64,000 nt of DNA from Escherichia coli (GCF_003991155.1 NZ_CP031294.1); one strand, 5' to 3'. Shown: positions 8,209 to 17,349, counted from the stretch's first letter. The notes: generated by a model from the letters alone, not told the origin. Made by a program: numbers and translations.

Positions 8209-8452
8209 TTTGATAGATTCTCACTTATCATGATGTATTGATTATAGAGCTTAAATTAACGCTAATCCAAGATAGACCGTTATGCTATCTGCTCGAACAA
8301 CCATTTCTTAGGGCTTGTTAATTGCAGGAGTTTCTCCTATTGTGTTCGTGGATTTAATCGAAAGAAATATGGGTTTTGAAAAGGATAGAATCTTCATGTT
8401 TCCGCACAGCATTTATCATTAATTATTCAAATTAAAAGGAAATATTATCCTC

Positions 8453-9043
8453 ATGTTTGATATTTATAATTTATTAAAGCAAATAGCAGAGAACACGAAA
8501 CCTGACCATTCTGCTATTTGGATTGCTGTAATATCTTCAATATCAGCTATTGCAGGCGCTGCTATTGGTGCATATTTGTTATATCGAGGCACAAACGAAC
8601 AAATTAATTCTGCTGCTGCTATTGAAGATAAAAAATTAAAAGCAACTATAATTACCGCAGAAAGACTTCGTTGGCTTCAAGAGCTAAGGTCAAGAAGTAG
8701 TGAGTTTTATGCGAATCTCGATATGAATTACAACTTATTAAAACGACCGATAAATCCGCAGGCAATCCCGACATATCAACAAGCTGGGGACGAACTGGCG
8801 AAAATTGTAATGATTCAATGCAATCAGATAATTGTATTGCTTAATCCTAAAAAAACTCATCAGCAAACTATTTTTAATAAATGTAATGATGCACTTAAAT
8901 TTTTCATGGAATGCGTCGAAGAAAAAAATAATGGTAATCTGAACTTTGATGATTCCAAGTATGCGGAAATAAAAAACGATTACTTTAATGCTTTAACTGA
9001 AATAGGTATTGAAACTTGGAAGCAGATAAAAGAGTTAAGTTGA
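8453..9043 (+). CDS. AT-rich accessory gene: membrane-anchored protein of unknown function
   Basis: Plus-strand ORF inside a minus-strand block; visibly lower GC than flanks; hydrophobic helix at residues ~20-45; own downstream terminator. Confidence 0.5.
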   Translation: MFDIYNLLKQIAENTKPDHSAIWIAVISSISAIAGAAIGAYLLYRGTNEQINSAAAIEDKKLKATIITAERLRWLQELRSRSSEFYANLDMNYNLLKRPINPQAIPTYQQAGDELAKIVMIQCNQIIVLLNPKKTHQQTIFNKCNDALKFFMECVEEKNNGNLNFDDSKYAEIKNDYFNALTEIGIETWKQIKELS

Positions 9044-9104
9044 TGTCTTATTGGCGGAAGATAATTAATAACTATCACTACACGGAATCTGCAATTAATA
9101 AATG

Positions 9105-9133
9105 AAACCCGCGATTGGCGGGTTTTTTATTTA
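9105..9133 (+). terminator. Rho-independent terminator (plus strand)
   Basis: AAACCCGC-GATTG-GCGGGTTT hairpin followed by TTTTATTTAT. Confidence 0.6.
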
Positions 9134-9261
9134 TGCGACTTTCTTACCCAAGATGTTGGATAGAGTGACTCTGGTCTGGCGTTTCAGCCTGTACTATCTC
9201 ACATCGCCAATCTTGTTTACTTTCATAAACTCTTTGGCCTCCTTTATGGTGTTTTCTTTAT

Positions 9262-12200
9262 TCATTTGCTAATAGTCTCCGCTACCTCTGCCAGAATTGC
9301 TTCCAGCTTTTCGCCTTCCTCTGGGCGAAAGTACAAAATATTCGGGTTAAATCCGTAGAAAACAGTCACATCCAGCTCCGGCAGATACTCTTTGCGTCCA
9401 ACCAGGTCGGATGGTTTGATCTTGTTGTTGAAGAGCGACGTTGCCCGGCTGCCACACGTCAGCACATAGGTCGGACGCACCAGATTGATCTCTTCACGCA
9501 TAAAGTCGGTGAACTGGCCGATCTCGTCTTTGGTGTAGTCTTTTTCTTTGTCTTTAACCTTCTTGCAAACGCCTGTGACATAGAGATCGCCCATGCGTAA
9601 ATCTCCAGCCGTCAATAGCTTGGCCTTAAAATCGTCGTATCCGTTCTCCATAAAGTAACCGGTTCGAGCATCATTGCCGTTCGCATTGTCCAGAATGATC
9701 ATGATTTTCGGCTTAATACCAATGCTGGGGCGGATTAGTTCATCACCTAAGCCCATTTCAGCCGCCATCCGTGTCATGAGCACGTTAATCTCAGCCGAAC
9801 GTTTGGGGTTCATCTCAAACGGACGAGAGGCTTTAACTGCATCTATGACAAGGTTTCCCATCAATTCAGCCTGGTCGCGGAGGCGCTCTGGATCAGTTGC
9901 TGGCAGACTACCTGGCTCGATGGATGCAAACGCCCCTACTTTTTGCAGCGATTCGCGCACTCGACTATTACAGGCACGTTTCTCGACAGCTTCTTCGAAT
10001 TGCGCAAGTGACTCGAATTTGCCGCCAACCTTTTCTCGCGCTCTCATGATGGCCTGGCAGCCATTCTCAGAACACCCCTTCACAGCAGAGAAGGGCGCAT
10101 ACAGCACCTGGCTGCCATCTTCAAGCGTGCGGATCTCGATTCGGTTAGATGACACGTTAACGTCTGGTGGCAATACGCGAATACCATAGGTCAGCGCATC
10201 TTTAACCAGCCCCTGGTGTTTATCTTCGCCAAGAATAGTGAGAGCAGCAGCGAAAAACTCTGCGGGATAATGAGTTTTCAACCACATAGATTGATAACTG
10301 ATTAAGGAGTAAGCAACAGAGTGTGATTTGTTGAACTGGTAGGCACCATTCTTTTCGAATGCGGTCCAGATCTCCTTCGCTTTCATCTCTGATAGCCCTG
10401 GATGTGACGCTGTAACGCGTACTGCGTTTATAGGTAGTTTTGCACCGAACTCAAGTGCCTCTTCGACAGTTTTCAGAGTTCCGTCTTCGCATTTAAAATG
10501 TTCCGCACGGTGAATGCGCTGTGTAGTGCCATCTTCCAGCTCAACGTCGATCCAGCCAGCTTGAGCCTGAACGATGAACTTCTCACCCATGCTCTTCATT
10601 TTCTCCATGTCTTTTTTGCCGATCGCTTTACGAACGCCGTCAGCTTCAGCCATTGTGAAGCCGGCAAGCAATCGAGTCGCGTTCATCGTCTGTTCCTGAT
10701 AGAGAATCACGCCATTTGTTTCTGCGGTAAGTTCATCAAGAACGGGGTGTAATGATTCCGGCGTCATAAAGCCTTTGGCGACAGAAACATAATCATCCAA
10801 CATGCCTGACTGAATTGGCCCCGGCCGGAAGAGCGCAGTCGTAGCAACGACCGTTTTAAAGCTCATTGGCTCAATTCCACCACCTAAATCTTTAAGCAGC
10901 TTGCGCATTGGGCCTGATTCAAGCTGGAAAACACCTTGAGTGTACCCAGCAGCAAAACCATCCAGCACCTTGCGATCTTCAAGAGAAATGGCATCAAGAT
11001 TGATATCCTCACCTGTGTTCTCTTTAATGTAGCGTTTTGCACTATCGAGCAAATCGAGAGTCGCCAGGCCAAGTACGTCCAGCTTAATTAGGCCCATAGC
11101 CTCGCAGTAACGCTTGTCAAATGCGATACAACGCGCGTCACCACGTCGTTCAACCGGTGTTCGTTCTGTCAGAGGAACACCTGCTACGATCATCCCTGCC
11201 GCATGTCTACCATAGCCACGCATAAGGCTTTGTAACTTGCAGGCTGCATTGAATGCATCAGGATATTTTGTCGCGTATTTGTCGAGGCTTGCCAGTTGTT
11301 CGCGCAGCTCTTCCAATGGAAGGCTATCATCCTCGACGTTCTTCAGTTCTTTTGATACCGCCATATCTGCGGACTCCACACCATAAATACGAGCGGTGTC
11401 ACGTAGTGCAGAGGCCGCGCCCAGGTAGGTGAAGTTCGGAATGCCTGCAACGTAATCTTCGCCGTAGCGTTCATTCAGATACTCGATCACCTCATGGCGA
11501 CGTGCCTGGCTGAAGTCCAAGTCCGCATCTGGCAAGTCGAGACGCTCAGGGTTGATGAAACGTTCAAACAGAAGACCGTGACGGATAGGGTCGACGTTGG
11601 TTATGCCTATGCACCATGCCACCAAAGAGCCAGCGGAGGAACCACGACCAGGCCCGACAGGAATGCCAGTTTCACGGCTGTGATTCATCAGATCGCGTAC
11701 CATCAGGAAGTAACCACAAAATCCCAGGCGAGTAAGCGTGTCCATTTCGTACTTAAGTCGCTCAACATAAACCCTGTTCTCAGAAGCCGGTGGTGTGTAG
11801 CCAAACTCTTTTGTGGTAAGACGTTTACGCAGCCCAGCAACGGCCAGTTTCATCAGCGTTGCAGGCTCGTCGTCTGCCATCTTTGGCAGTGCTGGTGGCA
11901 ATTCATGCCAGCGCCATGTGCAGGCATCGATAATGGTATCCTGCGTTGTTGAGGCCATTGCGGCTGTTACCGGCACATCCATGCGAACGGAGAAGGCTTT
12001 CAGCGCCTCAAGGAGATGGCGGCGACCATTGACGGCGTTATCTCGCTGGTGGGGGATACGCAGACGATGCGGCTGGTCGATTTTGATGTTGTTCGTAACC
12101 ATGTGCGCAATGTCTTTAATGTCTGCATCGTCGATCGATTCGTAATAAGCGGGATAGAACGCTACTGGCTCTATTTTCAGTGCGCTGGCGACTTTCATCG

Positions 12201-12780
12201 CCCGGACGTTAATCTGGTCGTAGAATGGGGTAGGGTGCGGATAAACCACACTATAGAAGTTGTTTTTTCCACCCGCTGTAATCAGTGAGCTTATGATTTT
12301 TGCAAAATCGTTGCGTTGGTACACGCTACCGATGTCGGCAGTGAGCAGGATGATGTTGCCTTTGGCATATGTAGAAACCAACTGTTCGAGCGAGAGACGC
12401 GGTACAAAGTAGAACTGTTCTCGTGTGTTGGCCGCCGTCATTAGTTCGCAGATGTCTCGATATCCCTGCTCATTTTTAATTAGAGCGGTAAAGGAGTAGT
12501 TCCGCCCACGCTCTAATGATTCCATACATCCCATAGACTCTTTAGCAAGTTTAGCCCGGTGCTCGTATGTGGGATCATCAACAATGTTTAGTTTCACACC
12601 ACAAATAACCGCCATGTCGTCACCAGCGGCACGTTGTAGTGGAATAACACTCGCAATATTCATGCTATCTGCCGAAATTACAGCGGTGTAGCCAGCTTCT
12701 CTGGCAATCTTCACCGCGTTTTCTGCTTTTAGAGCCGACTCCCCAAGAGAGAAGTCAGTTCGAACCATCAGAGCCTTCAT
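9262..12780 (-). CDS. dnaE: DNA polymerase III alpha-type replicative polymerase (DnaE family) with N-terminal PHP domain
   Basis: 1172 aa; PHP-like N-terminus and the conserved DnaE core segment GFCGYFLMVRDLMNHSRETGIPVGPGRGSSAGSLVAWCIGITNVDPIRHGLLFERFINPERLDLPDADLDF. Confidence 0.85.
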   Translation of the reverse strand: MKALMVRTDFSLGESALKAENAVKIAREAGYTAVISADSMNIASVIPLQRAAGDDMAVICGVKLNIVDDPTYEHRAKLAKESMGCMESLERGRNYSFTALIKNEQGYRDICELMTAANTREQFYFVPRLSLEQLVSTYAKGNIILLTADIGSVYQRNDFAKIISSLITAGGKNNFYSVVYPHPTPFYDQINVRAMKVASALKIEPVAFYPAYYESIDDADIKDIAHMVTNNIKIDQPHRLRIPHQRDNAVNGRRHLLEALKAFSVRMDVPVTAAMASTTQDTIIDACTWRWHELPPALPKMADDEPATLMKLAVAGLRKRLTTKEFGYTPPASENRVYVERLKYEMDTLTRLGFCGYFLMVRDLMNHSRETGIPVGPGRGSSAGSLVAWCIGITNVDPIRHGLLFERFINPERLDLPDADLDFSQARRHEVIEYLNERYGEDYVAGIPNFTYLGAASALRDTARIYGVESADMAVSKELKNVEDDSLPLEELREQLASLDKYATKYPDAFNAACKLQSLMRGYGRHAAGMIVAGVPLTERTPVERRGDARCIAFDKRYCEAMGLIKLDVLGLATLDLLDSAKRYIKENTGEDINLDAISLEDRKVLDGFAAGYTQGVFQLESGPMRKLLKDLGGGIEPMSFKTVVATTALFRPGPIQSGMLDDYVSVAKGFMTPESLHPVLDELTAETNGVILYQEQTMNATRLLAGFTMAEADGVRKAIGKKDMEKMKSMGEKFIVQAQAGWIDVELEDGTTQRIHRAEHFKCEDGTLKTVEEALEFGAKLPINAVRVTASHPGLSEMKAKEIWTAFEKNGAYQFNKSHSVAYSLISYQSMWLKTHYPAEFFAAALTILGEDKHQGLVKDALTYGIRVLPPDVNVSSNRIEIRTLEDGSQVLYAPFSAVKGCSENGCQAIMRAREKVGGKFESLAQFEEAVEKRACNSRVRESLQKVGAFASIEPGSLPATDPERLRDQAELMGNLVIDAVKASRPFEMNPKRSAEINVLMTRMAAEMGLGDELIRPSIGIKPKIMIILDNANGNDARTGYFMENGYDDFKAKLLTAGDLRMGDLYVTGVCKKVKDKEKDYTKDEIGQFTDFMREEINLVRPTYVLTCGSRATSLFNNKIKPSDLVGRKEYLPELDVTVFYGFNPNILYFRPEEGEKLEAILAEVAETISK

Positions 12781-12958
12781 GTGTTTTTACCTTTCTGGTT
12801 TTTTTGATTTTGTCATTGGGGAAGCCTACGAACTTCCCATACATCGAAATCGCAACTTCTTTTGCTGATTGGTGACAATCGGGCTTGTCTGGACACACCA
12901 GACAAGCCTTGCCAGTTTCAGAAGCAGCGATAAGAGAGCCGAAACATCCTTTACGCAC
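12755..12958 (-). CDS. Small Cys-rich hypothetical protein
   Basis: 67-aa ORF overlapping the dnaE start by ~26 nt; contains CLVCPDKPDC; may not be expressed. Confidence 0.25.
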   Translation of the reverse strand: MRKGCFGSLIAASETGKACLVCPDKPDCHQSAKEVAISMYGKFVGFPNDKIKKTRKVKTHEGSDGSN

Positions 12959-12960
12959 GA

Positions 12961-14196
12961 TTAACCAAATATTTTTTGAACAACTTCACGTGCCGCTTGC
13001 GCAGAAGCTGAAGGGAGTTTGTTAATGAAAGAACGCTCAATACCTGTCACAAAGTCGCCTCGCATCATTCCAATCTTGGCCGACAACAAAAGTTCACGAG
13101 GGCCAATCGGCTGACTGATCAGGTGTTCTTCGTATCCATCGCGAACGATACCGGCAAACTTAACCATCTTTTCAGCGTATTCATCCACGATGCCAGCATT
13201 TATCAACATGTTGATCTCTGCCTCTTTGCTCATGTATTTCACATTCGAAACGATGCCAAAACGCGAAAAGTTAGCGGCGTTCTGGATGTTTGTACCCTGG
13301 TACAAGCCGGTTTCATCACCAGATCCGTTCGTGTTGCCAGTGCCAATGAAAGCAAACCGTTCATGCGGAGTAATGCGACGCCATTCTTGAGTCGCCTCTT
13401 TGATGACCAACGCTTCACCTTCCAGCACTGGCTGATACACGCCAAGAATCTGTGGAAACGCAAAGTCGTATTCATCCGCGAGGTAAACCCAGCCATGCTT
13501 CATTGCGAGCGCAAGCAAGCCAGGCTCGAAATACGTAGAGCCATCACGCGCCAGAATTTGTCCCGTAACATGAGCCTCTTCCATTGATGCTGTATGTTGG
13601 GCACGGATTAACGGACGATTGAGCAAAGCACATAGTTGTGTAGGCAATGAAGATTTGCCTGTTCCTGCATGACCCCACAAATAGCCTGGTATGCCAAGTT
13701 CAAGCATCATGAAAATGTCTTTGATCAGTTCGAAGTCGCCATATACGTATCCCTTCTTCACTTCTGGAACGAACTCTGGAAACGGCGTATTGACGTTGAC
13801 GCTAACCATGAGCGGCGTCCCACGTTTTGTTCCGAGTTCTTTCACCGTTACATTTAGCAGTTCGTGAGCTGCGACCAGATCTGTCTTGTACTCAACTGTG
13901 CCTGTATAGCCTGGGCTATTGGTCACGCCAGATGATTTGGCCATTTCGCTTATTTGCTCGGCACGTTTAGCTTGAATTGCATCAAGTGCCTTTTTCGATA
14001 GCGTTGGCTCATCTGGAAACTGCGTTGTGTACATTTTCAGTACGGTGTCAGGATCGGCATCTTTTACTGACTCAGGAATGCCCTCGCAATTACCATTGGC
14101 TACATGGGACTTAAAATAGTGAAATGATTTTCCGCACCACTTGCAAACAAGGTAATCAGAAGGATTTTTTTCATTTTGCAGTGCAGTAGTAGTCAT
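12961..14196 (-). CDS. AAA+ ATPase, CobS/MoxR-like
   Basis: Walker A GHAGTGKSS, Walker B VYLADEYD, N-terminal Cys/His cluster (CKWCGKSFHYFKSH). Confidence 0.65.
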   Translation of the reverse strand: MTTTALQNEKNPSDYLVCKWCGKSFHYFKSHVANGNCEGIPESVKDADPDTVLKMYTTQFPDEPTLSKKALDAIQAKRAEQISEMAKSSGVTNSPGYTGTVEYKTDLVAAHELLNVTVKELGTKRGTPLMVSVNVNTPFPEFVPEVKKGYVYGDFELIKDIFMMLELGIPGYLWGHAGTGKSSLPTQLCALLNRPLIRAQHTASMEEAHVTGQILARDGSTYFEPGLLALAMKHGWVYLADEYDFAFPQILGVYQPVLEGEALVIKEATQEWRRITPHERFAFIGTGNTNGSGDETGLYQGTNIQNAANFSRFGIVSNVKYMSKEAEINMLINAGIVDEYAEKMVKFAGIVRDGYEEHLISQPIGPRELLLSAKIGMMRGDFVTGIERSFINKLPSASAQAAREVVQKIFG

Positions 14197-14291
14197 GCGT
14201 TTTTCCTTTGTTTTCTAATGAGCTTTCAACTTCTTATATAAATATACCATCAAATATCGTAAGTGATTACTTATCATTAAGGCTGTTCTAA

Positions 14292-16400
14292 TCACTTCAA
14301 AATGATACGAGATAGTTCAGTAACTACAGATGAACCAAGACTATCAACGCTCGTTACCAGGGCATGGTTTGCGTAAAATCTCTCCGGTGCGTCAGTCATG
14401 ATGCCAATTGCCATCAAATCAATGTCAGTCTGCGTTTCAATTTGCTTCGCAACCGAACGCAAATGAGCGTCAAAACCTCTCCCAACAGCCCACGGCGCGC
14501 CATCGCTTAGAACAAGCATGATCTTCTTGTCCTCCATGCGACCAGAAAATAACGATGCAAGGCTGGCTATGCTTTCACCATCCACGTTATTAAGAAGTGG
14601 GAATGTGTAGCCTACGCACCCCATACGTGAGCGAACTTCGCGAGAATTGGCCTTTTCATTCCAATTTTTGATGATAGGTAGCATTAAAGATTCAAAGCGA
14701 GAGAACTCATACTTGATTGCCTTAAGCTCTCCTGCTGCCATATGACTACCAAATGTAGTGAAGCCGGTGATAATGTTGGGAACATTTATTCGATCAAGGG
14801 CATCGGCGATGGTATATGCACTTGCAAGAGCCAATTGTATCGTTATACCACTCATTGAACCTGATAAATCAATCACTTGTTGAACACAGGCGTTAACGGC
14901 TTTAGATTCTTCTTTTTTACGAAACACGCGATCATCATTCATTGCTAATCTGTAGATACTAGAACCATGAATGCGCCCCCGACGCTGGCCCGGTATAAAC
15001 TGAACTCTGTTTCTGCTTGCTATTGCTCGCTCCAGGTCTTTTGCCAGCGTCGACGAAACACCTGACGAAAGATGCTTTTCAATATATTTGTCGAAGAGCT
15101 GGTTGCCTTCAGGAACGATGCGATAGCGGCTGATTGGATATCCTCCTAAATCAATATCGGAGAATGTTTTAATAAGCCGTTTGATATGGGCTTCTGCCTG
15201 ATCAATCGAGCCGATGAAGTCGTATGAGCGATTGTATGGCCTGTATTCGCTTTTCGAGCTTTCTGTTAACTCGCTTTTAATCGTTTCGGATAGAGCATCT
15301 TCTGTCATACCTCCGACTTCATCTTCTATGCTATCCAGCTCCTCTAAAGCCTCTTCCAGACTCATTTTTGACGGAGTTGGAATATCTGAAGAGCCGTCTT
15401 CTGTCGTTTTTCTTTTTTCGTGGTCAGCGGTTAATGATTCTGACGCCGCGTTATCAGAAGCATCAGAATCTGATACCTCTTTATCATTTTCTGTATCATC
15501 GAATATTGTTTCTGATGATTCAGAATTATCTGAATCATCACTGTCGTTATTATCATGTTTGTGCTTACTGTGTGGTTCTGATTTGATAGATTTGTGATTA
15601 TCTAACATTGAGGGTGTCTCATGATCTTCGTTATCTTCATTGTTTTCTCTAGAGGCATCCGTCTGGTCAGCGTCTGAAGGATCGGAAGTTTTTCCCGGAG
15701 CTGACTCCTTACCTTTGCTTTCACTTTCAGTGTCTTTGAGGATCTTAGCTATGGTCGCAGCCACCTTTACACAATCATCGGTGCAAGACATGTTACGCAC
15801 GGCCACATCGATACCATGTTCTTTTAATAATGAAATTGGTTTCTCAATGACAGGCCAATATTCATCCATGAAATCTACGAACGGTGCTTGGCCATCCCAG
15901 GCTCTTACAACCGGACAGAGAAAGAAGTTTAGAAAAAGCGCACGCTGATCTTTGCCACAATAAGCAATAGCCTCTGAAGCCTTTGGTTTAAAGACTTTTT
16001 CGATTATAAGGCGCTGAGTTGCCATCAGATTACGTCTTGTTCCGTTAAAGACCTGACCCATTTTTCGCTCGATGAACACGTCTTCTAAGGCATTCCATAG
16101 CGACCAGGAAGGAACGCGTCCTTTTTCTCTCATTTTGTTGGACACACGAATATCGGTAAACAAAATGTGAGCAACCTCATGATCGAGAAATCCGCGCACA
16201 GCATTCATCAATGCCGGTGTTGCGTTATCCGGGATTGATGGGATGTTTACGAGAATTGGCTCTCCATCATCGTTATAGCGTACATAAGCGTCGTCCCCTC
16301 GTTCTGCAACAGGGATGTTTTTACCTGAAAGGAGAGCGACTACTCGTTTTACACTGTCACGGAAGTCCTGAACCTCTTTGATGGAACGTTTTTTAGACAT
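14292..16400 (-). CDS. CobT-like protein with C-terminal von Willebrand factor A domain and long acidic low-complexity insert
   Basis: 702 aa; ~150-aa Asp/Glu/Ser-rich central segment; C-terminal VWA-like region (DLSGSMSG resembling a MIDAS DxSxS motif); adjacent to the AAA+ partner. Confidence 0.6.
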   Translation of the reverse strand: MSKKRSIKEVQDFRDSVKRVVALLSGKNIPVAERGDDAYVRYNDDGEPILVNIPSIPDNATPALMNAVRGFLDHEVAHILFTDIRVSNKMREKGRVPSWSLWNALEDVFIERKMGQVFNGTRRNLMATQRLIIEKVFKPKASEAIAYCGKDQRALFLNFFLCPVVRAWDGQAPFVDFMDEYWPVIEKPISLLKEHGIDVAVRNMSCTDDCVKVAATIAKILKDTESESKGKESAPGKTSDPSDADQTDASRENNEDNEDHETPSMLDNHKSIKSEPHSKHKHDNNDSDDSDNSESSETIFDDTENDKEVSDSDASDNAASESLTADHEKRKTTEDGSSDIPTPSKMSLEEALEELDSIEDEVGGMTEDALSETIKSELTESSKSEYRPYNRSYDFIGSIDQAEAHIKRLIKTFSDIDLGGYPISRYRIVPEGNQLFDKYIEKHLSSGVSSTLAKDLERAIASRNRVQFIPGQRRGRIHGSSIYRLAMNDDRVFRKKEESKAVNACVQQVIDLSGSMSGITIQLALASAYTIADALDRINVPNIITGFTTFGSHMAAGELKAIKYEFSRFESLMLPIIKNWNEKANSREVRSRMGCVGYTFPLLNNVDGESIASLASLFSGRMEDKKIMLVLSDGAPWAVGRGFDAHLRSVAKQIETQTDIDLMAIGIMTDAPERFYANHALVTSVDSLGSSVVTELSRIILK

Positions 16401-16498
16401 GGCTAATCCTTTGTTATGAAAACAAATTATTTACTAGTGTGTTTAATGTAGCACTGCGCGAACAGGGAACTAAGCCATTCGCGCAGGGAGAAGAGGGG

Positions 16499-16711
16499 TT
16501 AACAGATTCTGACGGCTAAAGACCCGGAGCCGGTATTGAGAAGCGTGAAGCGTTTGTTGTTAAGTTCGAATATAAAGCCAGTTGTGTCATTCACACCAAC
16601 CTGAATCTGCTCATTCGGTAGATCGGTGAGGATGTCAGCTACACACTCAACAGCTAATTTTTGTACGTGTCCGATCTCAAGAGCGATTAGGCTGGAAATA
16701 GTGGTGTTCAT
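16499..16711 (-). CDS. Hypothetical protein
   Basis: 70-aa ORF; weak support. Confidence 0.3.
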   Translation of the reverse strand: MNTTISSLIALEIGHVQKLAVECVADILTDLPNEQIQVGVNDTTGFIFELNNKRFTLLNTGSGSLAVRIC

Positions 16712-16888
16712 TCAATCAATCCATTCTAACTTATACTATGGTAAGGAATACTACTAAAATTTGTATCAATACTGAATACATTCATATCATATGCAAGTTA
16801 CTTTTCTTACCTATTTTGGGCTAATTTTTCTCCGTGCAATGGCCTTTAACCGGTCTTTTAAGTGCCTATCGAAAAAAATGATAATAGC

Positions 16889-16916
16889 TTTACAACCCTA
16901 ACCTTTGATGTAATAT
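16889..16916 (+). promoter_or_regulatory. Candidate sigma70-type promoter for the HTH regulator gene
   Basis: TTTACA, 16-nt spacer, TAATAT, about 45 nt upstream of the ATG at 16963. Confidence 0.4.
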
Positions 16917-16962
16917 CGGTAAGCACTTACCAGAGAGAATTGAACGCGCAAAGGTTGTAACC

Positions 16963-17349
16963 ATGTCTGATAACAAGATTGAATTTATAGAAAGTCGCTA
17001 CGCTGCTTTTATCGCAGGGTTGATTGAATCCTCACCTATGAGCCAGGCCCAGATAGCCAAAACAATTGGGTATAAAAACGCCAACAACCTTTCTTTAATT
17101 AAAAGCGGCAAAATTCCTTTGCCTATCGATAAGGTTCGTCCGCTGGCGCTGGCACTGGGCATTGAGCCAAGTCGTCTTATGATGATGGTGCTGGAAGAAC
17201 GCCAACCCGAACTCGCAGCATTTTTATACAAAGAAGGCACTGCTCCTCTTAACGAGGACGAAAAACAGGTTCTTGCTGCATATAACGAGCGATTCGGTAA
17301 AGAGAAAGGCGCATCACAAAAGGTTGTTGAGGCCATAAAGTCTCTATGA
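16963..17349 (+). CDS. HTH transcriptional regulator (XRE/Cro-like)
   Basis: Helix-turn-helix signature SQAQIAKTIGYKNANNLSLIKSGK; 128 aa; convergent with the recombinase gene. Confidence 0.6.
   Translation: MSDNKIEFIESRYAAFIAGLIESSPMSQAQIAKTIGYKNANNLSLIKSGKIPLPIDKVRPLALALGIEPSRLMMMVLEERQPELAAFLYKEGTAPLNEDEKQVLAAYNERFGKEKGASQKVVEAIKSL

What the first reader, a model, noticed from the sequence alone, without database searches (positions are those of the whole stretch)
12961..16400. CobS-like AAA+ ATPase and CobT-like VWA protein pair placed directly downstream of the DnaE polymerase gene
An AAA+ ATPase and a VWA partner form the classic chelatase or MoxR-type two-component arrangement, here inside a replication block. 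The VWA protein has a ~150-aa Asp/Glu/Ser-rich disordered insert. The function of such pairs in phages is unknown as far as I am aware, and the tight linkage to the polymerase suggests a replication-associated remodelling role rather than cobalamin synthesis.
Basis: partly seen in the sequence, partly recalled or inferred. Interest (0 to 1): 0.55.

Follow-up and report, generated by a model that had tools for sequence, protein, structure and literature searches.

The report
Phage CobS/CobT-like ATPase–peptidase-VWA pair
An E. coli phage-plasmid carries, in one gene string with its DNA polymerase, a diverged copy of the two-protein motor of the vitamin-B12 cobalt chelatase whose adaptor still has an intact metalloprotease motif, so it is probably a protein-remodelling or protein-cutting machine rather than a vitamin-synthesis enzyme, though its target is unknown.

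Summary
The two genes are real and sit at exactly the stated coordinates, on the minus strand. They therefore lie upstream of dnaE, not downstream. The window is an SSU5-like E. coli phage-plasmid.

The 411-aa protein is a CobS-like AAA+ ATPase with every catalytic residue intact, plus a clade-specific N-terminal zinc-knuckle motif. The 702-aa protein is CobT-like: N-domain, 162-aa acidic linker, pore "shaft", then a VWA domain with a MIDAS site. The acidic stretch is the normal family linker, not an insert.

Both proteins score far below the curated cut-offs for true CobS and CobT. I found no CobN partner gene. The phage's own ribonucleotide reductase is annotated as the subunit alpha/beta type, which needs no B12.

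The sharpest difference is an HExxH…E zinc-protease motif in the N-domain. It is kept in 143 of 146 family representatives and in seven phage lineages. It is absent from 120 of 120 true CobT N-domains.

The pair lies inside replication modules that use different polymerases in four of six lineages examined. Most DnaE-encoding phages lack it.

The viral cobST cluster and a phage "MoxR plus peptidase-vWA" pair are both already published. No study I found has tested the function. Verdict: a real, ordinary-looking pair that is a new variant of a known kind. The replication link is suggestive, not shown.

The parts
16712..16962 (.). Divergent intergenic region between the HTH repressor-like gene (16963..17349, + strand) and the orf70-cobT-cobS-orf67-dnaE gene string (- strand). 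It is the presumed control region.
   Evidence: ORF map. Cyrano annotates the equivalent gene as 'putative repressor'. A sigma70-like site for the + strand gene lies at 16889-16916. Inverted repeat at 16854-16872 / 16916-16934. The promoter for the - strand is not identified, so this part is inferred.
16499..16711 (-). orf70, a small ORF of unknown function and the first gene of the string.
   Evidence: phrog_2627, E=1.9e-40. Present in 62 of 75 IMG/VR relatives. Distant relatives have a small ORF at the same position, but with no detectable sequence similarity.
14292..16400 (-). CobT-like adaptor protein, 702 aa: zincin-like N-domain, acidic linker, shaft, VWA domain.
   Evidence: Pfam CobT 5.1e-27 and CobT_C 4.8e-83. 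phrog_1576, E=1.1e-298. TIGR01651 scores 69 bits against a cut-off of 759. PDB CobT 9uka_G, 1.8e-16.
15717..16400 (-). N-domain of the CobT-like protein (residues 1-228): helix alpha1, a three-stranded sheet, then a helical bundle. The fold is minigluzincin/M48-like.
16167..16181 (-). HEVAH (residues 74-78), an HExxH zinc-peptidase motif on the predicted active-site helix.
   Evidence: H74, E75 and H78 are invariant in the 32-sequence alignment A2. The motif is present in 143 of 146 representatives. It is absent from 120 of 120 true CobT N-domains.
16068..16085 (-). EDVFIE (residues 106-111). These conserved acidic residues lie on the next helix and are candidates for the third zinc ligand.
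   Evidence: E106, D107 and E111 are invariant in A2. Predicted helix 98-117. Their role as zinc ligands is inferred.
15231..15716 (-). Acidic, Ser/Thr-rich disordered linker (residues 229-390; net charge -32).
   Evidence: Composition. It is not alignable across the family, and its length varies. True CobT has a disordered linker of about 90 residues, acidic in the stretch aligned.
14901..15029 (-). Segment equivalent to the CobT 'shaft' (Brucella Q373-R413), which inserts into the CobS ring pore.
   Evidence: It aligns to CobT residues ~360-414. It is strongly conserved in the family: R458, G471, G475, L482, D489, R491, F493. The shaft's role comes from the cryo-EM preprint. Insertion into the pore is inferred here.
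14295..14891 (-). VWA domain with MIDAS site (DLSGS at 14856-14870; N605, D633).
   Evidence: CobT_C, E=4.8e-83. D511, S513, S515, N605 and D633 are invariant. They correspond to Brucella MIDAS residues D422, S424, S426, N518 and D546.
12961..14196 (-). CobS-like AAA+ ATPase, 411 aa.
   Evidence: AAA_5, E=1.8e-15. phrog_249, E=2.1e-105. TIGR01650 scores 86 bits against a cut-off of 558. PDB CobS 9ujv_A, 1.2e-25. The Walker A Lys, Walker B Asp-Glu, sensor-1 Asn, Arg finger and sensor-2 Arg are all conserved (K181, D241/E242, N288, R312, R367).
14104..14145 (-). CKWCGKSFHYFKSH: a C-x2-C-x4-H-x4-H zinc-knuckle-like motif in the ~140-aa N-terminal extension of the CobS-like protein.
   Evidence: Present in 33 of 39 distinct CobS-like proteins of the SSU5-like superfamily. 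Absent from the cyanophage, ICP2 and Brucella CobS sequences aligned. Metal binding is inferred.
12755..12958 (-). orf67, a Cys-rich small ORF that starts 2 nt after the cobS stop codon and overlaps the dnaE start by 26 nt.
   Evidence: phrog_6337, E=4.4e-47, plus a weak match to the N-terminus of phrog_3616. Proteins of 146-202 aa matching phrog_3616 occupy this slot in distant relatives. Present in 71 of 75 IMG/VR loci.
9262..12780 (-). DnaE-type DNA polymerase III alpha subunit (1172 aa) with a C-terminal UDG-family-4-like domain. It is the last gene of the string.
   Evidence: phrog_405 and TIGR00594. The order CobT -> CobS -> DnaE is kept in 63 of 63 IMG/VR loci and in relatives at ~30% identity.
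9105..9125 (-). Terminator-like hairpin just after dnaE, the presumed end of the transcription unit.
   Evidence: Consensus scan: 8-bp stem with 5 G-C pairs. The number of such sites does not exceed chance expectation, so this part is inferred.

Best explanation
The two proteins form a CobS/CobT-type motor-adaptor machine that has been put to a use other than cobalt chelation.

Proposed mechanism:
1. The CobS-like protein assembles into an ATP-hydrolysing hexameric ring.
2. The CobT-like protein docks on that ring through its N-domain and threads its conserved shaft into the pore.
3. The adaptor holds a protein client between its N-domain and the MIDAS face of its VWA domain.
4. ATP hydrolysis then remodels the client.
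5. Because the N-domain keeps an intact HExxH...E zinc-peptidase signature, which genuine CobT has lost, the client may also be cut.

The genes are expressed as one string with the phage DNA polymerase, next to the repressor gene. The client is therefore most likely a phage or host protein that matters when phage DNA replication starts.

What is shown: homology, conserved catalytic and interface residues, the protease motif, and gene order. What is inferred: complex formation, proteolysis and timing of expression. The client is unknown.
For: Homology and intact machinery:
- CobS and CobT are the closest solved relatives.
- All ATPase residues are conserved.
- The MIDAS site and the shaft segment are conserved.
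- The CobT_N residues that contact CobS in the Brucella structure (R76, D80) are kept as R69 and D73. On the CobS side, E404, Q407 and K408 match E308, Q311 and R312.

Not an ordinary chelatase:
- The pair scores 86 and 69 bits against curated equivalog cut-offs of 558 and 759.
- The CobS_N Pfam domain, found on Brucella CobS, was not detected here.
- The only ORFs of 450 aa or more in the window are DnaE, the CobT-like gene and ORFs in the virion-gene region (identity of the latter inferred from size and the Cyrano map). No cob gene other than the pair, and an alpha/beta-type ribonucleotide reductase, appear in bases 1-100,000 of the close relative Cyrano.
- No match to any defence-system model.

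Protease signature:
- HExxH is present in 143 of 146 family representatives clustered at 50% identity.
- It is present in the window phage, Rhizobium phage RHph_N1_10, ICP2, P-SSM7, RsoM2USA, CRP-810, T5S1 and Kvothe.
- It is absent from 120 of 120 true CobT N-domains, which carry D-[SA]-[MI]-A-L-[RK] at that position.
- The N-domain model is confident (pLDDT 90.7). It places HExxH and the conserved acidic residues on consecutive helices.

Link to replication:
- Gaps in the string are 95 nt (cobT to cobS) and 2 nt (cobS to orf67), and orf67 overlaps dnaE by 26 nt. The only minus-strand terminator-like site between the genes is a weak 5-bp stem inside cobS; a stronger one follows dnaE.
- The order CobT -> CobS -> DnaE is kept in 63 of 63 IMG/VR loci and at ~30% identity in Pseudomonas, Rhizobium, Xanthomonas and metagenomic relatives.
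- The pair also sits beside the clamp and clamp loader in cyanophage P-SSM7.
- It sits beside primase, helicase and a PolA-type polymerase in ICP2 and T5S1.
- It sits between a polymerase/exonuclease and a primase in RsoM2USA.
- No T4-type late-promoter motif lies before the P-SSM7 genes (weak evidence).
Against: - There is no experimental evidence of any kind.
- Gene neighbourhood in phages is a weak guide, because early regions mix replication, nucleotide metabolism and host-takeover genes.
- The pair is not visibly near replication genes in CRP-810 or Kvothe.
- DnaE is found in 874 phage records, mostly actinophages, and these organisms do not appear among the CobS-like hits. The pair is therefore not a general partner of DnaE.
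- A few family members have lost HExxH: phiK7B1 and 3 of 146 representatives. Catalysis is therefore not indispensable everywhere.
- The fold match to peptidases is weak (Z no higher than 5.8). Foldseek against the PDB found nothing with E below 1.
- Neither the promoter nor the timing of expression was established.
- The absence of CobN from E. coli rests on textbook knowledge. It was not tested here.
Confidence: 0.45

Rival explanations
1. Auxiliary metabolic gene. The phage CobS/CobT pair joins the host's CobN to make an active aerobic cobaltochelatase and so raises vitamin B12 supply during infection. This is the usual reading in the literature.
For: The closest solved and curated relatives are CobS and CobT. 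The motor-adaptor features used in the chelatase are kept: shaft, MIDAS site and the docking residues for CobS. The hypothesis is stated in PMC8651126 and PMC3037004. It is more plausible where the host has CobN and enzymes that depend on B12.
Against: Scores are far below the curated equivalog cut-offs. No CobN gene was seen in the window or in 100 kb of the close relative, whose own reductase is annotated as the alpha/beta type that does not use B12. E. coli makes no corrin ring, and Salmonella and Klebsiella use the anaerobic CbiK route without CobN (textbook knowledge, not tested here). The conserved HExxH motif has no role in the chelatase and is absent from 120 of 120 true CobT N-domains. 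The pair's consistent place among replication genes is not explained.
Confidence: 0.1
2. Virion-assembly chaperone and maturation protease. The MoxR-type ATPase and the peptidase-vWA co-chaperone fold, assemble and process structural proteins. This was proposed for group 2.2 jumbo phages by analogy with tail development in the archaeal virus ATV.
For: Iyer et al. 2021 (PMC7824862) describe the same architecture, a MoxR ATPase plus a vWA protein with an N-terminal metallopeptidase, and propose this role. The intact HExxH motif fits a processing protease.
Against: In the window the pair is separated from the virion-gene region (large ORFs from ~31 kb onward) by the repressor, integrase and tRNA region, and it runs into dnaE. 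The jumbo phage RsoM2USA has the pair between a polymerase/exonuclease and a primase. P-SSM7 has it between gp46 and gp45/gp44, with no late-promoter motif before it. No lineage examined has the pair next to head or tail genes.
Confidence: 0.15
3. Metal-cofactor insertion chaperone for a metalloenzyme of nucleotide or DNA metabolism. Candidates are the metal centre of the phage ribonucleotide reductase small subunit or the PHP domain of DnaE. This would parallel NorQ/NorD (iron into nitric oxide reductase) and CoxD/CoxE.
For: Several MoxR-class AAA+/VWA pairs serve metal insertion or enzyme activation (discussion in the preprint). The pair co-occurs with nucleotide-metabolism and replication genes. 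NorQ and CbbQ are detectable relatives, and NorD is a weak relative of the VWA part.
Against: No specific metalloenzyme is a constant neighbour. The associated polymerases differ: DnaE in SSU5-like phages, a COG0749 (PolA-type) enzyme in ICP2, and others of undetermined family. The idea does not explain why an HExxH peptidase motif is conserved. Nothing in the sequence ties the pair to the reductase.
Confidence: 0.15
4. Host-takeover or counter-defence protease unrelated to replication. The machine recognises and destroys or disables a host protein, and its position among early genes only reflects early expression.
Against: No match to any known defence or counter-defence family. Such genes are usually variable, whereas this pair is a fixed core gene pair kept in order over deep divergence. 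Hosts range from enterobacteria to cyanobacteria and actinobacteria, so the target would have to be very widely conserved.
Confidence: 0.15

Closest known systems
Aerobic cobaltochelatase motor CobS/CobT (Brucella melitensis CobSTN; PDB 9ujv-9ukh; bioRxiv 10.64898/2026.07.21.739949)
   Same: This is the closest relative by sequence. It shares the two-gene arrangement and the AAA+ ring protein with the same catalytic residues. The adaptor has the same plan: an M48-like N-domain, an acidic disordered linker, a shaft, then a VWA domain with a MIDAS site. The RGxxD docking residues are conserved.
   Different: Scores are far below the curated CobS and CobT cut-offs. No CobN partner was seen. The phage adaptor keeps HExxH where true CobT has D-[SA]-[MI]-A-L-[RK]. 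The CobS residues that grip the shaft (S102, D110, R147) are not conserved. The phage CobS lacks a detectable CobS_N domain and has a ~140-aa extension with a zinc-knuckle motif. The genomic setting is DNA replication, not the cob operon.
Viral 'cobST' gene cluster described as an auxiliary metabolic gene pair (PMC8651126; ICP2 ORF41/42 in PMC3037004; cyanophage cobS)
   Same: It is the same protein family and the same two-gene cluster. The window's pair belongs to this viral group: phrog_249 and phrog_1576, with tblastn links to ICP2 and cyanophage genes.
   Different: Those papers read the pair as a B12 biosynthesis aid and treat the 'peptidase' annotation of cyanophage CobT as a mistake. 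Here the peptidase motif proves to be a conserved feature that separates the viral proteins from true CobT, and the host of this phage lacks the pathway.
MoxR AAA+ ATPase plus metallopeptidase-vWA pair of group 2.2 jumbo phages (Iyer, Anantharaman, Krishnan, Burroughs, Aravind 2021; PMC7824862)
   Same: The domain architecture is the same: a MoxR-class ATPase and a vWA protein with an N-terminal metallopeptidase domain. The jumbo phage RsoM2USA pair examined here shares HExxH, the MIDAS site and phrog_459 with the cyanophage 'peptidase'.
   Different: That paper, in the passages I read, does not mention CobS/CobT and proposes virion assembly. I did not retrieve the proteins it cites, so identity with the present family is inferred from architecture alone. 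The gene contexts found here point to replication modules, not structural modules.
Other MoxR-class motor-adaptor pairs: NorQ/NorD, CbbQ/CbbO, RavA/ViaA, and midasin (Rea1) with its MIDAS domain
   Same: These pair an AAA_5-type ring ATPase with a VWA/MIDAS adaptor to remodel one dedicated client. They are detectable sequence relatives.
   Different: They are much more distant than CobS/CobT. The descriptions I read mention no peptidase-type N-domain on their adaptors. Their clients are known: nitric oxide reductase, Rubisco, respiratory complexes and pre-ribosomes.

Membership tests
Aerobic cobaltochelatase subunit CobS (TIGR01650 equivalog) | Whole-protein score above the curated equivalog cut-off (558.55 bits) | tested here: not met
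   86.1 bits.
Aerobic cobaltochelatase subunit CobS | AAA+ module with Walker A, Walker B, sensor-1 Asn, Arg finger and sensor-2 Arg as in B. melitensis CobS | tested here: met
   K181, D241/E242, N288, R312 and R367 align with K77, D141/E142, N186, R210 and R271. PDB CobS 1.2e-25.
Aerobic cobaltochelatase subunit CobS | N-terminal CobS_N domain (Pfam PF12556), as found on Brucella CobS | tested here: not met
   The Pfam scan lists only AAA_5 and weak AAA hits. Brucella CobS carries PF12556. The phage protein instead has a ~140-aa extension with C-x2-C-x4-H-x4-H.
Aerobic cobaltochelatase subunit CobT (TIGR01651 equivalog) | Whole-protein score above the curated equivalog cut-off (759.05 bits) | tested here: not met
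   69 bits.
Aerobic cobaltochelatase subunit CobT | Domain plan: N-domain, disordered acidic linker, shaft, VWA with MIDAS site | tested here: met
   Pfam CobT plus CobT_C. Alignment to 9uka_G covers the shaft and VWA. MIDAS residues D511, S513, S515, N605 and D633 are invariant. Linker composition.
Aerobic cobaltochelatase subunit CobT | N-domain is a pseudo-peptidase: M48C-like fold without the HExxH catalytic motif | tested here: not met
   None of 120 true CobT N-domains has HExxH. The window protein has HEVAH, which is conserved in 143 of 146 relatives.
Aerobic cobaltochelatase CobNST holoenzyme | A CobN substrate-binding subunit available in the same genome or in the host | tested here: inconclusive
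   No CobN-sized ORF in the window other than DnaE and ORFs in the virion-gene region. None is annotated in bases 1-100,000 of Cyrano. Absence from E. coli rests on established knowledge that E. coli lacks corrin-ring synthesis. It was not searched here.
Aerobic cobaltochelatase CobNST holoenzyme | [quoted passage not shown] | not testable with these tools
   Needs a biochemical assay.
MoxR-class AAA+ ATPase with VWA partner | AAA_5-type ATPase encoded next to a VWA protein with an intact MIDAS motif | tested here: met
   AAA_5, E=1.8e-15. The VWA domain with DxSxS...N...D lies 95 nt upstream on the same strand. Relatives include midasin, CbbQ and NorQ and NorD.
Zincin (gluzincin, M48/M56/minigluzincin-like) metallopeptidase | HExxH on one helix and a Glu ligand on a following helix | tested here: met
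   HEVAH at residues 74-78 lies in predicted helix 62-81. Invariant E106, D107 and E111 lie in helix 98-117.
Zincin (gluzincin, M48/M56/minigluzincin-like) metallopeptidase | Significant fold match to solved zincin peptidases | tested here: inconclusive
Zincin (gluzincin, M48/M56/minigluzincin-like) metallopeptidase | Zinc binding and peptide-bond hydrolysis | not testable with these tools
   Needs metal analysis and a protease assay, with H74A and E75A controls.
Known anti-phage defence systems (PADLOC) | Match to a defence-system protein model | tested here: not met
   No family for CobS-like, orf67 or orf70. The only hit for CobT-like is a marginal DrmE match (E=0.0014, 15 bits).

The most novel reading that the evidence does not exclude
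The widespread viral 'cobS/cobT' genes, counted in ocean and gut viromes as vitamin-B12 auxiliary metabolic genes, are not chelatase subunits. They would instead form a distinct ATP-driven protease or remodelling machine, in which a CobS-type ring powers an adaptor that carries its own active zinc peptidase and a VWA client-binding domain. The machine would act on a protein needed for, or blocking, phage DNA replication. Genuine CobT would then be a derived form of this machine that has lost its peptidase activity.
Probability: 0.3. Interest if true: 0.75.

Novelty: new variant of a known kind. Interest (0 to 1): 0.5.

Why it matters
Viral cobS is routinely listed as an auxiliary metabolic gene for vitamin B12. 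It is near-universal in marine cyanomyoviruses and is even used as a marker gene for them (PMC9983427). If the viral proteins are a peptidase-bearing remodelling machine tied to replication, those metabolic inferences are wrong for a large share of viral genomes. A conserved core function of many phages, including the SSU5-type phage-plasmids of Enterobacteriaceae, would remain to be discovered.

The contrast between an intact HExxH in viral proteins and its loss in true CobT gives a simple sequence test to separate the two. It also gives clean point mutants for experiments. In addition, it bears on how the cobaltochelatase adaptor evolved, given that its N-domain has just been shown to have a peptidase fold.

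Tried and rejected
1. A CobS-DnaE fusion in Xanthomonas phage JGB6. The CobS-like match lay under a feature named 'DNA polymerase III subunit alpha'. tblastn showed that the record's product names are displaced along a frameshifted genome. The order there is CobT, CobS, DnaE as separate genes. Rejected.

2. Sequence search of the N-domain alone against the PDB. It gave only chance hits such as HLA and superoxide dismutase.

3. Foldseek of the N-domain model against the PDB. No hit had E below 1. The CobT structures are probably newer than that copy of the library.

4. A protein search seeded with the Brucella CobT VWA fragment. It returned only truncated proteins without the N-domain. The N-terminus had to be rebuilt from a frameshifted Brucella locus, and a second search was needed.

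5. Homology among the small ORFs that precede the CobT-like gene in distant relatives. None was detectable, so only the position is conserved.

6. Known defence systems. No match.

7. 'Cobaviruses' (Zobellviridae, Cobavirinae). The name refers to their cobalamin-dependent reductase, not to CobT, and the paper says nothing about the pair.

8. The LF82/Cyrano paper. It has no data on these genes.

9. The idea that the pair is a general accessory of phage DnaE. Rejected, because DnaE is found in 874 phage records, mostly actinophages that do not appear among the CobS-like hits.

10. A sigma70-type promoter for the minus-strand gene string. None was found by the consensus scan, and inspection of the intergenic sequence gave no convincing site.

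11. The second structure prediction (CobS N-extension) and the third fold search were not run. The available alignment has only 16 sequences, and the result would not have decided between the explanations.

Full report
**What the window is**

Bases 9200-17000 match Escherichia phages PhiR41_1, CMS-2020a and Cyrano at 94-97% nucleotide identity, and Salmonella phage SSU5 at 81%. The window therefore comes from an SSU5-like phage-plasmid of E. coli.

**The observation**

Two long ORFs occupy exactly the stated span, both on the minus strand:
- a 702-aa ORF at 16400..14292;
- a 411-aa ORF at 14196..12961.

Around them on the same strand lie orf70 (16711..16499), orf67 (12958..12755) and dnaE (12780..9262). 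The order of transcription is therefore orf70, CobT-like, CobS-like, orf67, dnaE.

The genes are closely spaced. The gap from cobT to cobS is 95 nt, and the gap from cobS to orf67 is 2 nt. From the coordinates, orf67 overlaps dnaE by 26 nt.

The consensus scan found a terminator-like hairpin just after dnaE (9125..9105). Between the genes it found only a weak 5-bp stem inside cobS. A repressor-like HTH gene is transcribed divergently from the start of the string. Co-transcription is an inference from this layout. I could not identify a promoter.

**The ATPase**

Pfam finds an AAA_5 domain (E=1.8e-15). The best solved relatives are:
- B. melitensis CobS (E=1.2e-25);
- midasin;
- CbbQ;
- NorQ.

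I aligned the protein with Brucella CobS and with CobS-like proteins of five other phage groups. The Walker A lysine, Walker B Asp-Glu, sensor-1 Asn, arginine finger and sensor-2 Arg are all conserved (K181, D241/E242, N288, R312, R367). The protein should therefore be an active ATPase.

It differs from true CobS in three ways:
- It scores 86 bits against a curated cut-off of 558.
- The CobS_N domain, which Brucella CobS carries, was not detected.
- It has an N-terminal extension of about 140 residues containing CKWCGKSFHYFKSH, a C-x2-C-x4-H-x4-H motif.

That motif is present in 33 of 39 distinct CobS-like proteins of the SSU5-like superfamily. It is absent from the cyanophage, ICP2 and Brucella proteins aligned.

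**The adaptor**

Pfam finds the CobT N-domain (E=5.1e-27) and the CobT_C VWA domain (E=4.8e-83). The best solved relative is Brucella CobT. The curated CobT model gives 69 bits against a cut-off of 759.

A very recent preprint on the Brucella CobSTN structures (bioRxiv 10.64898/2026.07.21.739949) supplies the anatomy against which to compare:
- CobS forms a hexameric ring.
- CobT has an N-domain with a peptidase M48C-like fold.
- A disordered linker of about 90 residues follows.
- A 'shaft' (Q373-R413) enters the ring pore.
- A VWA domain follows, with a MIDAS site formed by D422, S424, S426, N518 and D546.
- CobN sits between the two CobT domains.

The window protein has all of these parts:
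- The 162-residue acidic linker has net charge -32. It is the normal family linker, not an insert.
- The shaft-equivalent segment (residues ~458-500) is among the best conserved stretches of the family.
- The MIDAS residues are invariant.
- R69 and D73 correspond to R76 and D80, which contact the small domain of CobS in the crystal structure.
- On the CobS side, E404, Q407 and K408 match E308, Q311 and R312.

From this I infer that the phage proteins form the same kind of motor-adaptor complex.

**The main difference from CobT**

The N-domain carries HEVAH at residues 74-78, followed by EDVFIE at 106-111.

How well the motif is conserved in the phage family:
- In an alignment of 32 relatives at 29-52% identity, H74, E75, H78, E106, D107 and E111 are invariant.
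- Among the 146 full-length representatives returned by the search of 50%-identity clusters, 143 have HExxH in the first 160 residues.
- The scan of viral contigs chose [LIV]DHEV[AG]H[IVL] as one of the two most conserved peptides of the family.
- The motif is also present in Rhizobium phage RHph_N1_10, Vibrio phage ICP2, cyanophage P-SSM7 (gene annotated 'peptidase'), Ralstonia jumbo phage RsoM2USA, roseophage CRP-810, the Zobellviridae phage T5S1 and Gordonia phage Kvothe.
- Pseudomonas phage phiK7B1 and three representatives have lost it.

How true CobT compares:
- I rebuilt the Brucella CobT N-terminus from a frameshifted locus. Its residue numbering matches the preprint.
- It reads GDSMALR where the phage proteins read DHEVAHI.
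- In 120 further true CobT N-domains, none has HExxH anywhere. The equivalent positions are D-[SA]-[MI]-A-L-[RK].

Structural support is moderate:
- An AlphaFold2 model of the phage N-domain is confident (mean pLDDT 90.7).
- It shows helix alpha1, a three-stranded sheet and a helical bundle, the layout described for CobT_N.
- HExxH and the acidic residues fall on consecutive helices.
- Foldseek against the PDB found nothing.

The sequence evidence for a zincin signature is strong, the fold evidence is moderate, and activity is untested.

**Is it a cobaltochelatase here?**

I think not, for four reasons:
- Both proteins miss the curated equivalog cut-offs by a wide margin.
- The only ORFs of 450 aa or more in the window are DnaE, the CobT-like gene and five ORFs at 31-62 kb that I take to be virion genes from their sizes and the Cyrano map.
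- The close relative Cyrano shows no other cob gene in its first 100 kb. Its own reductase is annotated as ribonucleoside-diphosphate reductase subunits alpha and beta, the type that does not use B12.
- E. coli does not make the corrin ring, and Salmonella and Klebsiella use the anaerobic CbiK route without CobN.

The last point is textbook knowledge that I did not test.

Cyrano's product names, 'cobalamin synthetase' and 'dimethylbenzimidazole phosphoribosyltransferase', come from confusion with the unrelated Salmonella CobS and CobT.

**Gene context elsewhere**

Within the SSU5-like superfamily the order CobT, CobS, small ORF(s), DnaE is fixed:
- 63 of 63 IMG/VR loci with enough flank keep it.
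- It also holds at about 30-37% identity in Pseudomonas phage phiK7B1, Rhizobium phage RHph_N1_10, Xanthomonas phage JGB6 and four metagenomic contigs.
- In the metagenomic contigs that extend far enough, the wider module reads helicase, primase, CobT, CobS, x, DnaE(+UDG), x, gp32, exonuclease, RecA.

This could be shared ancestry alone. More telling are other lineages with different replication genes:

| Lineage | Arrangement |
|---|---|
| Cyanophage P-SSM7 (T4-like) | gp46 ... CobT-like, x, DNA-binding protein, cobS, x, gp45 clamp, gp44 |
| Vibrio phage ICP2 | CobT, CobS, two small ORFs, primase, helicase, polymerase annotated COG0749 (DNA polymerase I) |
| Phage T5S1 (same family as ICP2) | CobS, x, CobT, x, x, polymerase, x, primase/helicase |
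| Ralstonia phage RsoM2USA (all 'hypothetical' in the record) | polymerase, x, x, exonuclease, x, CobS-like, CobT-like, x, primase |

Three observations weigh against a replication link:
- CRP-810 has the pair near the genome end with endonuclease V and an integrase.
- Kvothe has it among unnamed genes.
- DnaE is found in 874 phage records, mostly actinophages, which do not appear among the CobS-like hits.

The pair is thus not an accessory of any one polymerase family. The replication link is an association, not a demonstration.

**What the literature says**

- The viral cobST cluster is known and is read as a way to use host CobN (PMC8651126). That paper calls the cyanophage 'peptidase' annotation a mistake.
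- ICP2's genes were noted in 2011 (PMC3037004).
- Papers from 2023-2024 state that the function in phages is unknown (PMC11288001, PMC9983427).
- Independently, Iyer et al. 2021 described a 'previously unrecognized' MoxR ATPase plus vWA protein with an N-terminal metallopeptidase in group 2.2 jumbo phages. They proposed virion assembly and processing (PMC7824862).

The present analysis connects the two descriptions. The viral proteins are CobT homologues and they do carry a peptidase motif. True CobT has the peptidase fold without the motif. I found no experimental study of the viral pair in the library searched.

**Most likely mechanism**

The following is inferred except where marked as shown above:
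1. A CobS-like hexamer binds the CobT-like adaptor through the N-domain contact and the shaft in the pore.
2. The adaptor holds a protein client between the zincin-like N-domain and the MIDAS face, where CobN sits in the chelatase.
3. ATP-driven movement remodels the client.
4. The retained zinc site may cleave it.

The client is unknown. The gene string, the neighbouring repressor gene and the contexts in other phages suggest a role at the onset of phage DNA replication. I put this at 0.45.

The rivals and my estimates are:
- virion assembly and processing, 0.15;
- a metal-insertion chaperone for a replication or nucleotide enzyme, 0.15;
- a host-takeover protease unrelated to replication, 0.15;
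- the literature's chelatase reading, 0.1 for this host.

**Verdict**

- The object itself is already described in the literature, so it is not categorically new.
- It is best called a new variant of a known kind: a viral CobST-like pair distinguished from the chelatase by an intact peptidase motif, a zinc-knuckle extension on the ATPase in this clade, the lack of a CobN partner, and a replication-module setting.

Noticed in passing
window 9271-9630 (- strand; DnaE residues ~1051-1170): The DnaE polymerase has a C-terminal domain matching family-4 uracil-DNA glycosylase (TIGR00758, E=1.7e-7). Pfam UDG is also recorded on the DnaE of distant metagenomic relatives, so the fusion is old. By my recollection of the family-4 motifs, the sequence looks degenerate at the usual catalytic positions (DNANG where GEAPG is expected, NPN where HPS is expected). 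It may bind rather than excise uracil.
   Followed up: partly
window 12755-12958 (- strand): orf67 is Cys-rich (CLVCPDKPDC) and overlaps the dnaE start by 26 nt. It matches only the N-terminal part of phrog_3616. Proteins of 146-202 aa matching that family occupy the same slot between CobS and DnaE in Pseudomonas and metagenomic relatives. Enterobacterial phages therefore keep a shortened version of a conserved protein coupled to DnaE, of unknown function.
   Followed up: partly
window 14104-14145 (- strand): The CobS-like ATPase starts with a C-x2-C-x4-H-x4-H zinc-knuckle-like motif, followed by a conserved Y..(F/Y)P..P.LS motif. Both are specific to the SSU5-like/Nickievirus/Rhizobium phage clade and absent from true CobS.
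   Followed up: partly
window 8209-9261, ORF 8453-9043 (+ strand): Just beyond the end of dnaE the similarity to related phages stops. A 196-aa ORF on the opposite strand (phrog_24982, unknown function, no defence-model match; the 8-10 kb interval has 41% G+C) sits where Cyrano carries a hicA/hicB toxin-antitoxin pair. This looks like a variable cargo slot.
   Followed up: partly
window 16454-16486 (- strand): A 9-bp G+C-rich hairpin (CTGCGCGAA ... TTCGCGCAG, 15-nt loop) lies between orf70 and the CobT-like gene, with no T-run after it. It could be a regulatory or processing element inside the gene string.
   Followed up: no
L001/L002 (Escherichia phage Cyrano, OV696614.1) and L004 (Xanthomonas phage JGB6, OQ436456.1): There are annotation errors in public records. 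Cyrano names the pair 'cobalamin synthetase' and 'dimethylbenzimidazole phosphoribosyltransferase', which are the unrelated Salmonella CobS and CobT. JGB6 is fragmented by frameshifts and its product names are displaced, so CobT/CobS fragments are called 'DNA polymerase III subunit alpha' and DnaE fragments are called 'AAA family ATPase'.
   Followed up: yes
L010 16986-19067 (metagenomic relative): The RecA-like gene of a distant relative of this replication module carries an intein (Pfam Intein_splicing between two RecA_N hits). Cyrano's 'RecA' is also unusually long (2340 nt), which suggests an intein or insertion there too.
   Followed up: no
L014 3316-5380 (Brucellaceae genome GCA_012103055.1): The chromosomal cobT gene of this assembly is split by a frameshift into two ORFs. 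In this genome cobS and cobT lie next to dnaJ- and bolA-like genes, and no other cob gene is visible in the 9.4-kb stretch.
   Followed up: no
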